A DNA stretch of 64,000 bases, taken from a virus. A program made the position numbers and the translations under genes. Below the pieces are notes generated by a model. That model was not told the origin of the DNA. It was given only the letters and a program-made list of their open reading frames with translations, and made no database searches. The stretch spans positions 2,444 through 66,443 of the IMG/VR virus record IMGVR_UViG_3300032007_000082. One strand, 5' to 3'. This document shows, piece after piece, positions 63,809 through 64,000 of this stretch. Numbering within the stretch: the stretch's first letter is position 1; every line of letters starts with the position of its first letter.

Positions 63809-64000
63809 TAATTCCCCCGAATTCGGGGGTTTTAATTTGGTGGAATTCCACCTAAATAGAAATGTGCAATTTTTGCACATTGCAATATAAACAAAAAAAA
63901 TGCACATATCAATCTAATTCGGGCGAATTCGCCCGAATTAAAAACAACTTCTCGCGACTTATTGCCACTTTGTTGAAACGCATAATCTAAATCGGCCGAA
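63809..64000. repeat. array of 26-bp GAATTC-centred palindromes plus a TGTGCA/TGCACA hairpin; truncated by the window edge
   Basis: units at 63809-63834, 63833-63858, 63915-63940 and a partial unit at 63988-64000. Confidence 0.85.

What the first reader, a model, noticed from the sequence alone, without database searches (positions are those of the whole stretch)
63809..64000. Array of GAATTC-centred palindromes with co-varying arms: possible decoy-site or cassette library
Seen: four units share the frame TAA-N7-GAATTC-N7-WTA (TAATTCCCCCGAATTCGGGGGTTTTA; TAATTTGGTGGAATTCCACCTAAATA; the perfect 26-bp TAATTCGGGCGAATTCGCCCGAATTA; and a partial TAAATCGGCCGAA cut by the window end). Arm sequences differ between units but remain self-complementary, so symmetry rather than sequence is conserved. 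A second palindrome type, AATGTGCAA-TTT-TTGCACATT (63861-63881), and a half copy near 63900 lie between them. Recollection, unverified: the units translate as FNSPEFGGF, FNLVEFHL, SNSGEFARIK and NVQFLHIA, resembling the variable palindromic segments inside bacterial KilA-N-domain and RhuM-family genes, although no such gene is here. Inference: the phage has collected several variants of these sites, perhaps as DNA decoys for host DNA-binding or defence proteins, as donor cassettes for diversification, or as a cruciform/RNA array.
Basis: partly seen in the sequence, partly recalled or inferred. Interest (0 to 1): 0.85.

Follow-up and report, generated by a model that had tools for sequence, protein, structure and literature searches.

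The report
Phage array of KilA-N-type palindromes
A rumen phage carries, in one fast-changing non-coding gap, a row of small DNA hairpin units of the same kind that is otherwise written inside KilA-N genes (candidate anti-phage genes), so the row may be a set of molecular decoys, although its function is untested.

Summary
The contig is a circular assembly (127-nt end overlap). Read across the join, unit 4 completes as a palindrome and more hairpins follow: four GAATTC-centred units, two AATTT-centred units and others. They lie in a 678-nt gap between converging gene blocks.

The GAATTC units belong to a widespread module, TTTTAATT-N5-GAATTC-N5'-AATTAAAA. In IMG/VR, 76 sites have arms at least 4/5 complementary. 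Of these, 39 lie inside KilA-N-type ORFs; 5 of 5 tested are Pfam KilA-N and PADLOC candidate family PDC-S22. The other 37 are free-standing. U1 and U2 carry arm alleles also found in such genes; the U3 and U4 alleles were found nowhere else. This phage has no KilA-N, RhuM or Bro-N gene.

The module behaves as a discrete insert: a 66-nt two-unit block is present or absent in otherwise similar phage genes. In four independent cattle-gut and gut samples the array region differs structurally, while the flanking methylase gene is conserved.

Function is unproven. My leading reading (about 0.35) is a multi-allele DNA decoy or self-tag against KilA-N-type defence proteins, by analogy with BstA/aba. 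Neutral portable filler and RNA hairpins or terminators are serious rivals. This scan has met the same palindrome family on other DNA; I found no paper describing it.

The parts
63806..64000 (.). Left part of the 678-nt non-coding gap between converging gene blocks. It continues across the circular join to L001 610, where the minus-strand N6-methyltransferase gene ends.
   Evidence: ORF maps; circular join; Pfam/PHROG of the neighbours
63806..63833 (.). U1: TTTTAATT-CCCCC-GAATTC-GGGGG followed by TTTT. It is a GAATTC-core unit (allele CCCCC/GGGGG) and is also the only canonical intrinsic-terminator-like hairpin for the plus-strand genes.
   Evidence: (terminator scan); the same allele occurs at 2 gene-borne and 2 free sites in IMG/VR
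63830..63860 (.). U2: TTTTAATT-TGGTG-GAATTC-CACCT-AAATAGAA. It is joined head to tail to U1 (24-nt period) as a two-unit dimer.
   Evidence: The dimer architecture recurs in 4 other viral contigs. Allele TGGTG/CACCA occurs at 2 gene-borne sites and 1 free site.
63861..63881 (.). P1: dyad AATGTGCAA-TTT-TTGCACATT. It belongs to a second motif family (ATGTGCA/TGCACAT), not to the GAATTC family.
   Evidence: There are three dyads in the gap, and 5 of 11 unique heptamer copies in the genome lie here.
63899..63907 (.). Half copy of the P motif (AATGCACAT).
63911..63946 (.). U3 with its flanks: AATC-TAATT-CGGGC-GAATTC-GCCCG-AATTAAAAAC, containing a 26-nt perfect palindrome.
   Evidence: Present without change in independent run X3 and in X6. 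The allele was not found elsewhere.
63984..64000 (.). Left half of U4 (AATC-TAAAT-CGGCC-GAA...). It is completed at L001 128-146. It is a direct repeat of the U3 module, 73 nt away, with a compensatory arm change (CGGGC/GCCCG versus CGGCC/GGCCG).
   Evidence: (family D4)
63599..63805 (+). Last plus-strand ORF before the array: a 68-aa ParB-like helix-turn-helix fragment.
   Evidence: PHROG phrog_2159, E 9.7e-5, profile positions 165-225 of 365; no Pfam hit
63340..63636 (+). 98-aa N-terminal fragment of an SNF2/ResIII-type helicase (a gene remnant). One X6 variant joins about 63565 directly to the U3 module.

Best explanation
SHOWN. The finding is the left end of a string of short hairpin-forming palindromes about 310 nt long. 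Four units are centred on GAATTC, two on AATTT, and others follow. The string lies in the 678-nt non-coding gap where the two converging gene blocks of a circular 66.3-kb cattle-gut phage meet.

The GAATTC units are free-standing copies of a widespread palindromic DNA module of about 26-32 bp, TTTTAATT-N5-GAATTC-N5'-AATTAAAA. The centre and outer arms are conserved; the inner 5 bp vary but stay complementary. The module's other home is the reading frame of KilA-N genes of the candidate defence family PDC-S22.

The module is portable. One- or two-unit blocks occur with unrelated flanks in unrelated phages, and as a clean 66-nt presence/absence difference inside a phage gene. In this phage lineage, units are gained, lost or replaced between samples.

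INFERRED (about 0.35). The array works as DNA, as a set of mimic 'self' tags or decoys that occupy or placate KilA-N-type abortive-infection proteins of hosts or resident prophages. The different arm alleles would cover different variants of the defence gene. This would parallel the way the aba DNA element switches off its cognate KilA-N protein BstA. U1 additionally serves as the terminator of the last plus-strand gene. My confidence that the units belong to the KilA-N palindrome family is about 0.85. The confidence figure given for this explanation is for the whole statement including the decoy function.
For: Anatomy and non-randomness.

Family:
The unconstrained arms are 5/5 complementary in 40 and 4/5 in 58. 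Chance gives about 0.1% and 1.5%.
- Of 112 unique sites, 76 have at least 4/5 complementary arms. Of those, 39 lie inside KilA-N-type ORFs and 37 are free; 36 of the 37 have no KilA-N-type ORF in the fetched locus.
- 5 of 5 tested carriers are Pfam KilA-N, E 1e-21 to 1e-27.
- The same 5 of 5 match PADLOC PDC-S22, E 1e-116 to 1e-133.
- Gene-borne and free sites share the common alleles, including those of U1 and U2.

This phage: no KilA-N, RhuM or Bro-N gene in a record rated 100% complete, and no coding remnant beyond the palindrome cores.

Portability:
- 7 of 20 aligned homologues of the L006 ORF carry a 22-aa insert made of two units and 13 lack it.
- At DNA level it is a 66-nt block between the same flanks. 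L331 and L334 differ by a compensatory C>G / G>C pair in the arms.
- 5 of 5 records with a free unit have a single site, so presence rather than copy number or position seems to matter.
- The U1-U2 dimer architecture recurs in 4 other contigs.

Arms-race-like variation: all 4 independent runs conserve L001 466-1900 but differ structurally in 1-465. In X3, U4-U5 are replaced by another hairpin. X5 has insertions in both arms of U5. In X6 the U3-U4 block has other flanks.

Precedent: aba is a DNA element within the locus of a KilA-N Abi protein, acts in trans and is allele-specific (passages of PMC8585504).
Against: - No experiment links this palindrome to any defence.
- PDC-S22 is only a candidate family.
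- aba itself is a different sequence: 63 bp over the bstA start codon with CCCGCC direct repeats, not a palindrome.
- The U3 and U4 alleles were found in no gene: 0 hits in viral contigs, 0 with flanks in genome contigs, and 104 core hits of which 0 are in a KilA-like context.
- U5 and U6 do not belong to the GAATTC family. The U5 15-mer elsewhere shows no conserved flanks, and in 84 of 109 hits the palindrome does not extend.
- Complementary arms could be kept by template-switch 'correction' of quasi-palindromes rather than by selection.
- A convergent junction is where terminators and neutral debris are expected anyway.
- The host is unknown, so matching of phage alleles to host alleles could not be tested.
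- There are no RNA data.
Confidence: 0.38

Rival explanations
1. Portable but functionless filler. The units are selfish or neutral palindromic modules, spread by recombination, template switching or capture at breaks. They pile up in this gap because a convergent non-coding junction tolerates insertions, and the resemblance to KilA-N genes only reflects the modules' source.
For: - Clean 66-nt presence/absence block in a gene.
- Units occur with unrelated flanks, next to tRNA genes, before ribosome-binding sites and in frame in ORFs.
- The gap lies beside two gene remnants and is structurally unstable between samples.
- The U3 and U4 alleles match no gene.
Against: - One site per record in 5 of 5 records, and all units of this phage lie in one locus, unlike MITE or REP families that scatter.
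- No target-site duplication signal at 19 free units compared with shuffled pairing.
- No transposase is associated.
- Free units keep the centre and outer arms without any coding constraint, and the arms stay complementary.
Confidence: 0.3
2. RNA-level hairpins. The array is a bidirectional stack of terminators, insulators, RNase processing sites or 3'-end stabilisers that keeps the converging transcription units apart.
For: - Position between converging genes.
- U1 is a canonical terminator 8 nt after a stop codon. U4 and P1 score as terminator-like on the minus strand.
- Very strong predicted folding.
- The cumulative GC skew, which follows gene direction, peaks exactly here.
Against: - U2, U3, U5 and U6 have no U-tract on either strand.
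- Stems alone would not need the conserved GAATTC centre and AATT flanks.
- The same module sits in frame inside ORFs of other phages, where a strong terminator would be harmful.
- No other gene end in this genome uses such units.
Confidence: 0.2
3. Replication origin or regulatory hub. The hairpins accompany iteron- or operator-like dyads (TGTGCAA-N3-TTGCACA) and an A-rich tract, and serve initiation or repressor binding.
For: - Three ATGTGCA-type dyads and 5 of 11 unique heptamer copies lie in the gap.
- A near-identical dyad, GTGCAAATTTTGCAC, occurs twice inside an ORF of another phage that I read, from its repeat pattern and without any family search, as a lambda O-like replication gene.
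Against: - This explains the P dyads, not the GAATTC units.
- The skew polarity is that of a terminus (cumulative maximum), and it follows transcription in any case.
- The region is structurally variable between close relatives, which is unusual for an origin.
Confidence: 0.08
4. Assembly artefact, or EcoRI linker or vector contamination.
For: The cores are EcoRI sites and the region sits at a contig end.
Against: - The contig end is an ordinary 127-nt circular overlap.
- Independent runs from other studies hold U3 and U4 and bridge the join.
- The same module is part of natural KilA-N reading frames.
Confidence: 0.01

Closest known systems
aba (anti-BstA) self-immunity element of the BstA abortive-infection system (Owen et al. 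2021, PMC8585504; passages read)
   Same: It is a short DNA element lying within the locus of a KilA-N-domain defence protein. It acts as DNA, works in trans from another replicon, and is specific to its cognate protein variant. A phage that carries it escapes the defence.
   Different: aba is 63 bp spanning the bstA start codon, with terminal CCCGCC direct repeats, and is not a palindrome. The present module lies about codons 60-75 of a different KilA-N family (PDC-S22), is a GAATTC-centred palindrome, and has no experimental link to immunity. Natural phage-borne arrays of several alleles are not described in the passages I read.
PeSL (promoter-early stem-loop) cassettes of T4-type phages (PMC2839356, PMC4122927; search listing and start of abstracts only)
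   Same: Short stem-loop-bearing motifs mark the boundaries of insertions, deletions and replacements in hyperplastic regions of phage genomes.
   Different: As I recall it, a PeSL couples an early promoter to a terminator and brackets small ORFs. Here the units are bare palindromes without ORFs between them, and they are shared with a bacterial or prophage gene family.
Rickettsia palindromic elements and other MITE-like repeats inserted in frame in genes (recalled; MITE review PMC10969869 seen only in a search listing)
   Same: Small palindromic modules that can sit in frame inside protein-coding genes, and also between genes.
   Different: As recalled, RPEs and MITEs are roughly 100 bp or longer and occur in many scattered copies per genome, often with target duplications. 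Here a unit is 26-32 bp, occurs at one locus per phage record, and shows no duplication signal.
REP/BIME clusters at convergent gene ends (recalled)
   Same: Rows of imperfect palindromes with compensating stem changes occur after genes, often between converging genes.
   Different: As recalled, REPs are host-chromosome families with hundreds of copies, a GTAG-type tag and RAYT transposases. None of these applies here.
Intrinsic (Rho-independent) terminators
   Same: A G+C-rich hairpin directly after a stop codon. U1 has the T-run.
   Different: Only U1 (plus strand), and weakly U4 and P1 (minus strand), have T-rich tails. The conserved centre and flanks are not terminator features.

Membership tests
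GAATTC-core palindrome module of KilA-N genes (undescribed in print as far as searched) | GAATTC centre flanked by 5-nt arms that are complementary to each other | tested here: met
   U1, U3 and U4 have 5/5 complementary arms. U2 has 4/5 in the pattern register (TGGTG/CACCT), while its core GGTGGAATTCCACC is a perfect palindrome.
GAATTC-core palindrome module of KilA-N genes (undescribed in print as far as searched) | Conserved outer arms TTTTAATT / AATTAAAA (variant left flank TCTAATT) | tested here: met
   U3 and U4 match the search pattern fully. U1 and U2 have the left flank, and their right flanks are altered (U1's right flank is U2's left flank).
GAATTC-core palindrome module of KilA-N genes (undescribed in print as far as searched) | Arm allele shared with gene-borne copies | tested here: inconclusive
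   U1 (CCCCC/GGGGG: 2 gene-borne, 2 free) and U2 (TGGTG/CACCA: 2 gene-borne, 1 free) are shared. The U3 and U4 alleles were found in no gene.
GAATTC-core palindrome module of KilA-N genes (undescribed in print as far as searched) | Lies in the reading frame of a KilA-N gene | tested here: not met
   No KilA-N, RhuM or Bro-N match in the phage. No coding remnant beyond the cores. These are free-standing copies, as are 37 of 76 IMG/VR sites.
aba-type anti-defence DNA element (BstA system) | Sequence features of aba: 63 bp over the start codon of the defence gene, with terminal CCCGCC direct repeats | tested here: not met
   The passages of PMC8585504 compared with the unit sequences.
aba-type anti-defence DNA element (BstA system) | Carrying the element protects a phage from the cognate KilA-N protein | not testable with these tools
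   Needs plaque or transformation assays.
Intrinsic terminator | G+C-rich stem-loop followed by a T-run | tested here: inconclusive
   Met by U1 on the plus strand, and loosely by U4 and P1 on the minus strand. Not met by U2, U3, U5 or U6.
MITE / REP / RPE-type mobile palindromic repeats | Many dispersed copies within one genome | tested here: not met
   All units of this phage lie in one locus. There is one site per record in 5 of 5 other records.
MITE / REP / RPE-type mobile palindromic repeats | Target-site duplication at insertions | tested here: not met
   The longest flanking direct repeats at 19 free units match the shuffled control. The 66-nt insert has none. One possible exception is L217, where CTCTCCAAT flanks a dimer.
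CRISPR repeat / solitary repeat unit | Match to a CRISPR direct-repeat model | tested here: not met
   Only sub-threshold Rfam hits: CRISPR-DR21 at 18.2 bits against a gathering score of 48, and CRISPR-DR63 at 19.2 bits against 37.

The most novel reading that the evidence does not exclude
The array is a natural, phage-borne library of stolen 'self' DNA tags. Each unit copies the palindrome that a KilA-N (PDC-S22-type) abortive-infection gene carries in its own reading frame as a self-immunity signal. By stacking several arm alleles, and swapping them between strains, the phage would disarm several variants of that defence at once. This would also mean that thousands of KilA-N genes carry a second, nucleic-acid code overlaid on their protein code.
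Probability: 0.3. Interest if true: 0.9.

Novelty: new variant of a known kind. Interest (0 to 1): 0.66.

Why it matters
If the decoy reading holds, it would be the first natural example of a phage escaping a protein-based abortive-infection system with a multi-allele DNA mimic. It would give a function to a palindrome maintained inside a very large family of KilA-N genes, and it would turn PDC-S22 from a candidate into a testable defence with a known off-switch.

If the units prove functionless, the finding still documents a very small (26-66 nt) portable palindromic module that enters phage genes in frame without target duplication. No mechanism I know of accounts for that.

The module is also a practical marker of recombination-prone junctions in phage genomes.

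Tried and rejected
**Searches that found nothing**
- Rfam, on L001 and the window end at E up to 10: only sub-threshold chance hits.
- blastn of the region and of 4 kb upstream against the phage collection: no match.
- Close relatives in viral contigs by methylase, by terminase, by the U3/U4 pattern and by a 30-mer of the conserved G+C-rich block: none. That collection may leave out the record's nearest kin.
- The metagenome scan gave one 1.8-kb contig (L002), which covers only L001 about 390-610.
- Pfam on 8 ORFs that cross the units, at E up to 10: no KilA-N or RhuM hit. The resemblance is at DNA or short-motif level only.

**Ideas rejected**
- Units as remnants of KilA-N genes. tblastn with 5 proteins gave only an E 0.5 alignment around U4. 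A profile of 8 KilA-N segments found nothing at the units in six frames.
- Units as ends of the nearby TnpB element. Its ends look different.
- Transposition with a target-site duplication. No signal.
- U5 as a member of a widespread family. Its 15-mer is frequent but has random flanks.
- The conserved G+C-rich block L001 455-650 as a structured RNA. z-scores are -0.8 and -1.15, not significant.
- GC skew does not separate replication from transcription in this genome.

**Gaps**
- No RNA holder was listed by the look-up of sequencing runs, so there is no expression evidence either way.
- The read-laying table hid 48 further base differences, so the arm changes of U3-U6 in run X5 could not be read.
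- RhuM genes as carriers of the palindrome were not tested.
- Supplementary files of Owen et al. (their Figures S4-S5) were not opened and may hold aba details that bear on the comparison.

**Literature**
- 'KilA-N' with 'palindrom' found 7 papers, none relevant by title or abstract.
- 'PDC-S22' found 2 papers, of which the one listed is a Streptococcus suis genomics survey.
- On these two searches alone I say that the palindrome is not in print.
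Full report
**1. What is there**

The window is contig positions 2444-66443 of a one-contig virus record of 66,443 nt. The first and last 127 nt of the contig are identical, which is the usual signature of a circular assembly. IMG/VR classes the record as having direct terminal repeats, and CheckV rates it 100% complete. 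I fetched contig 1-6000 as L001; L001 position p equals window 63873+p.

Across the join, unit 4 completes as TCGGCCGAATTCGGCCGA, with one mismatch in the outer arms. The string then goes on:
- U5, tatttccaaTttggaaata, L001 149-167
- U6, tttcggaaTttccgaaa, L001 175-191
- a hairpin at L001 207-228, another at 231-248, and more up to about L001 400

The whole lies in a 678-nt gap. The gap is bounded by the stop of a plus-strand ORF at 63805 and the stop of a minus-strand N6-adenine methyltransferase gene at L001 611. It is therefore a convergent junction.

**2. More than chance, and not an artefact**

- Five of the 14 GAATTC sites of the 66,316-nt circle lie within 222 nt.
- Of 656 AATT cores, 7 have perfect stems of at least 5, and 4 of the 7 are here. 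Of 274 AATTT cores, 2 have stems of at least 6, and both are here.
- Ten of the genome's 76 perfect hairpins (stem at least 7, loop at most 8) lie in this 1% of the genome.
- Predicted folding is far better than shuffles: z -6.1 for 63790-64000 and -7.6 for L001 1-260, with 0 of 200 shuffles as good.
- U3 and U4, with their flanks, form a 36-nt direct repeat 73 nt apart that differs by a compensatory arm change.

Runs from 14 studies, mostly cattle gut, hold parts of L001 1-2000. I laid four runs from four other studies, X3 to X6. X3 holds L001 1-104, including U3, without a difference. X6 holds 21-147, covering U3 and U4. X5 and X6 contigs bridge the 127/128 join. Linker contamination or misassembly is therefore excluded for U3 and U4. 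U1 and U2 were outside the stretch laid.

**3. The region is hypervariable**

All four runs conserve L001 466-1900, which covers the G+C-rich block and the methylase gene, with a few per cent of substitutions. Each differs structurally in L001 1-465:
- X3 replaces 105-173 (U4 and U5) by 33 nt that contain another hairpin.
- X5 has insertions in both arms of U5.
- X6 diverges after position 147. One X6 contig joins the helicase-fragment gene (about window 63565) directly to L001 35, so that variant lacks 63566-63907 with U1, U2 and P1.
- X4 and X5 carry other sequence, with yet another G+C-rich hairpin, before positions 383-389.

The table did not show 48 further base differences, so I could not read the arm changes in X5.

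**4. What the units are**

- Among 142 strand matches, the unconstrained arms were 5/5 complementary in 40, 4/5 in 58, 3/5 in 30 and lower in 14. Chance gives about 0.1% for 5/5 and 1.5% for 4/5.
- The matches collapse to 112 unique sites, 76 of them with arms at least 4/5 complementary. Of those 76, 39 lie inside ORFs that match a profile of KilA-N segments and 37 are free-standing. Of the 37, 36 have no such ORF in the fetched locus.
- The carrier ORFs read ...WLRNRNTLEYIGIWEELNNPNFN-xx-EF-xx-IK....
- Five of five tested are Pfam KilA-N, E 1e-21 to 1e-27. All five match the PADLOC model PDC-S22 over their full length, E 1e-116 to 1e-133. That 'PDC' means phage defence candidate is my recollection; the library describes itself as holding known and candidate systems.
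- Gene-borne sites show 16 arm pairs, including 7 different perfect alleles. The commonest alleles are shared between gene-borne and free sites.
- U1 (CCCCC/GGGGG) and U2 (TGGTG/CACC-) carry alleles seen in both classes.
- The U3 and U4 alleles were found nowhere: 0 hits in viral contigs and 0 hits with flanks in genome contigs. There were 104 hits to the bare 18-mer, 0 of them in a KilA-like context by my motif test; the 45 loci I printed were mostly in G+C-rich genomes, as chance would give.

The phage itself has no KilA-N, RhuM or Bro-N match. It shows no KilA-N coding remnant around the units.

**5. The module is portable**

Free units have sharp edges and unrelated flanks. They lie beside tRNA genes, just before ribosome-binding sites, or in frame in ORFs of G+C-rich phages.

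For one such ORF (L006) I searched for homologues and aligned 20. Seven carry a 22-aa insert, NLVESHQIKRDSNS(L/V/P)EF(E/D)GIKT, exactly between ARPVPA and APAVAVPA. Thirteen lack it, and some pairs (for example P0003 and P0009) are near-identical across the aligned region apart from this insert.

At DNA level the insert is 66 nt, made of one decayed unit plus one perfect unit, between identical flanks and without a target duplication. Two carriers differ by a compensatory C>G / G>C pair in the arms.

A two-unit dimer with the same 24-nt period and the same altered right flank as U1-U2 occurs in 4 other viral contigs.

In contrast to MITE or REP families, 5 of 5 records with a free unit have one site only. 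Nineteen free units show no flanking-repeat excess over a shuffled control. Arrays are rare: 72 units in 1.03 Mb of these loci gave only 3 pairs within 150 nt. The six-unit row in this phage is therefore exceptional.

**6. How it most likely works**

Shown:
- membership of the units in the palindrome family
- free-standing status in a phage that lacks the gene
- modular gain and loss
- strain-to-strain turnover

Inferred: function. I rank four readings.

(a) DNA decoy or self-tag for KilA-N-type defence proteins, about 0.35.
- For: the carrier genes fall in a candidate defence family.
- For: free units occur in phages without the gene, once per genome and at arbitrary places, even inside ORFs. 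This fits selection for presence rather than position.
- For: this phage stacks several alleles and swaps them between samples.
- For: there is a precedent. BstA, a KilA-N-domain abortive-infection protein, is switched off by aba, a DNA element in its own locus that works in trans and only on the cognate variant (passages of PMC8585504).
- Against: aba is not this palindrome; it is 63 bp over the start codon with CCCGCC direct repeats.
- Against: PDC-S22 is untested, U3 and U4 match no known gene allele, and nothing here shows binding.

(b) Functionless portable filler, about 0.3.

(c) RNA hairpins acting as terminators, insulators or processing sites, about 0.2. U1 is a canonical terminator, and U4 and P1 are terminator-like on the minus strand. 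The other units lack U-tracts, and the same module sits inside ORFs elsewhere.

(d) Origin or regulatory hub, about 0.08. This explains the second motif family better than the GAATTC units.

The complementary arms could also be kept by template-switch correction of quasi-palindromes (established mutational knowledge, recalled). Covariation is therefore weaker evidence of selection than it looks.

**7. U5, U6 and the second palindrome type**

The U5 15-mer is common in viral contigs but has random flanks (no flank position above 0.5), and in 84 of 109 hits the palindrome does not extend. I therefore cannot place U5 and U6 in a wider family.

One suggestive parallel exists. In L053, three AATTT-centred hairpins with different arms, one sharing a 13-nt core with U5, lie between a KilA-N gene and a Bro-N/ORF6C gene.

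The AATGTGCAA-TTT-TTGCACATT dyad is one of three ATGTGCA-type dyads in the gap. Five of the genome's 11 unique heptamer copies lie here (which lists 12 including a wrap-around duplicate). A near-identical dyad occurs twice in an ORF of another phage; that this ORF is a lambda O-like replication gene, and the dyads its iterons, is my reading of the sequence, not a family hit.

**8. Known or new**

Rfam has no match. Full-text searches for KilA-N with 'palindrom' (7 papers, none relevant by title or abstract) and for PDC-S22 (2 papers held; the one listed is a genomics survey) found no description.

Earlier notes of this same scan report the same palindrome inside KilA-N genes, and stray copies in coliphages and beside hok loci. 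They proposed the aba analogy. I reached the KilA-N link independently, took the aba paper from those notes, and checked it myself.

What this window adds:
- a multi-allele array
- its completion across the circular join
- its turnover between samples
- DNA-level proof of a clean two-unit insertion
- the PDC-S22 assignment of the carriers

Closest known kinds: aba/BstA for function, PeSL cassettes for stem-loops at indel boundaries in phages (listing and abstracts only), and RPE/MITE/REP elements for form (recalled).

I rate it a new variant of a known kind. Interest is 0.66. It would rise to about 0.9 if the decoy reading is confirmed.

Relatives cannot be drawn for a virus record. Supplements were not opened.

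Noticed in passing
window 63874-64000 = contig 1-127: The contig's first and last 127 nt are identical, so this is a circular assembly of 66,316 unique nt. The finding therefore sits on the arbitrary cut of a circle, not at a genome end.
   Followed up: yes
window 63340-63805: There are two gene remnants just before the array: a 98-aa N-terminal piece of an SNF2/ResIII helicase, and a 68-aa ParB-like helix-turn-helix piece in another frame. One variant in run X6 joins about 63565 directly to the U3 module, so even this remnant region is polymorphic.
   Followed up: partly
window 63861-63881; L001 26-34, 350-366, 371-396: A second motif family is present. Three dyads of the type TGTGCAA-N3-TTGCACA, plus half sites, hold 5 of the genome's 11 unique ATGTGCA/TGCACAT heptamers. 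They bracket the U3-U6 hairpins and look like iterons or operators.
   Followed up: partly
L001 430-610 (outside the window); L002 1489-1806: A G+C-rich block (up to 57% against 38% for the genome) is conserved in all four laid runs. It is preceded by a TTGACAATTATAA box. In metagenome contig L002 this box is duplicated, with about 85 extra nt between the copies. A hairpin at L001 575-600 keeps pairing in L002 only if read as plus-strand RNA (G-U pairs). The overall fold is not significant.
   Followed up: partly
whole genome (window 1-64000 plus contig 1-2443): There is strong avoidance of many 6-bp palindromes. Twelve have zero copies, including ACTAGT, AGTACT, ATCGAT, TCTAGA and GGATCC, each expected 8-22 times. 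TTGCAA occurs 109 times against 21.8 expected from base composition.
   Followed up: no
whole genome; contig positions 2 and 57,977 (window about 55,534): The cumulative GC skew has its maximum exactly at the array and its minimum at the divergent junction near window 55,534. It follows gene orientation, so it cannot by itself place an origin.
   Followed up: partly
L053 3230-3330: Three tandem AATTT-centred hairpins have different, complementary arms and G+C-rich linkers (period about 33 nt). They lie between a KilA-N (PDC-S22) gene and a Bro-N/ORF6C gene of an unrelated viral contig. One shares the 13-nt core TTCCAATTTGGAA with U5.
   Followed up: partly
L331/L334 versus L332/L333 (about positions 800-900 of each locus): A 66-nt two-unit palindromic block is present or absent between identical flanks inside a phage ORF of unknown function, without target duplication. 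The two carriers differ by a compensatory pair of arm substitutions.
   Followed up: yes
L217 3705-3774 (minus strand): A two-unit dimer lies in a G+C-rich coding region and is flanked on both sides by CTCTCCAAT. This is the only case seen that looks like a target duplication or a local duplication.
   Followed up: no
window 60501-61820: A TnpB (OrfB_IS605 plus Cas12f1-like TNB) gene lies 2 kb upstream. Its ends do not resemble the GAATTC units.
   Followed up: partly
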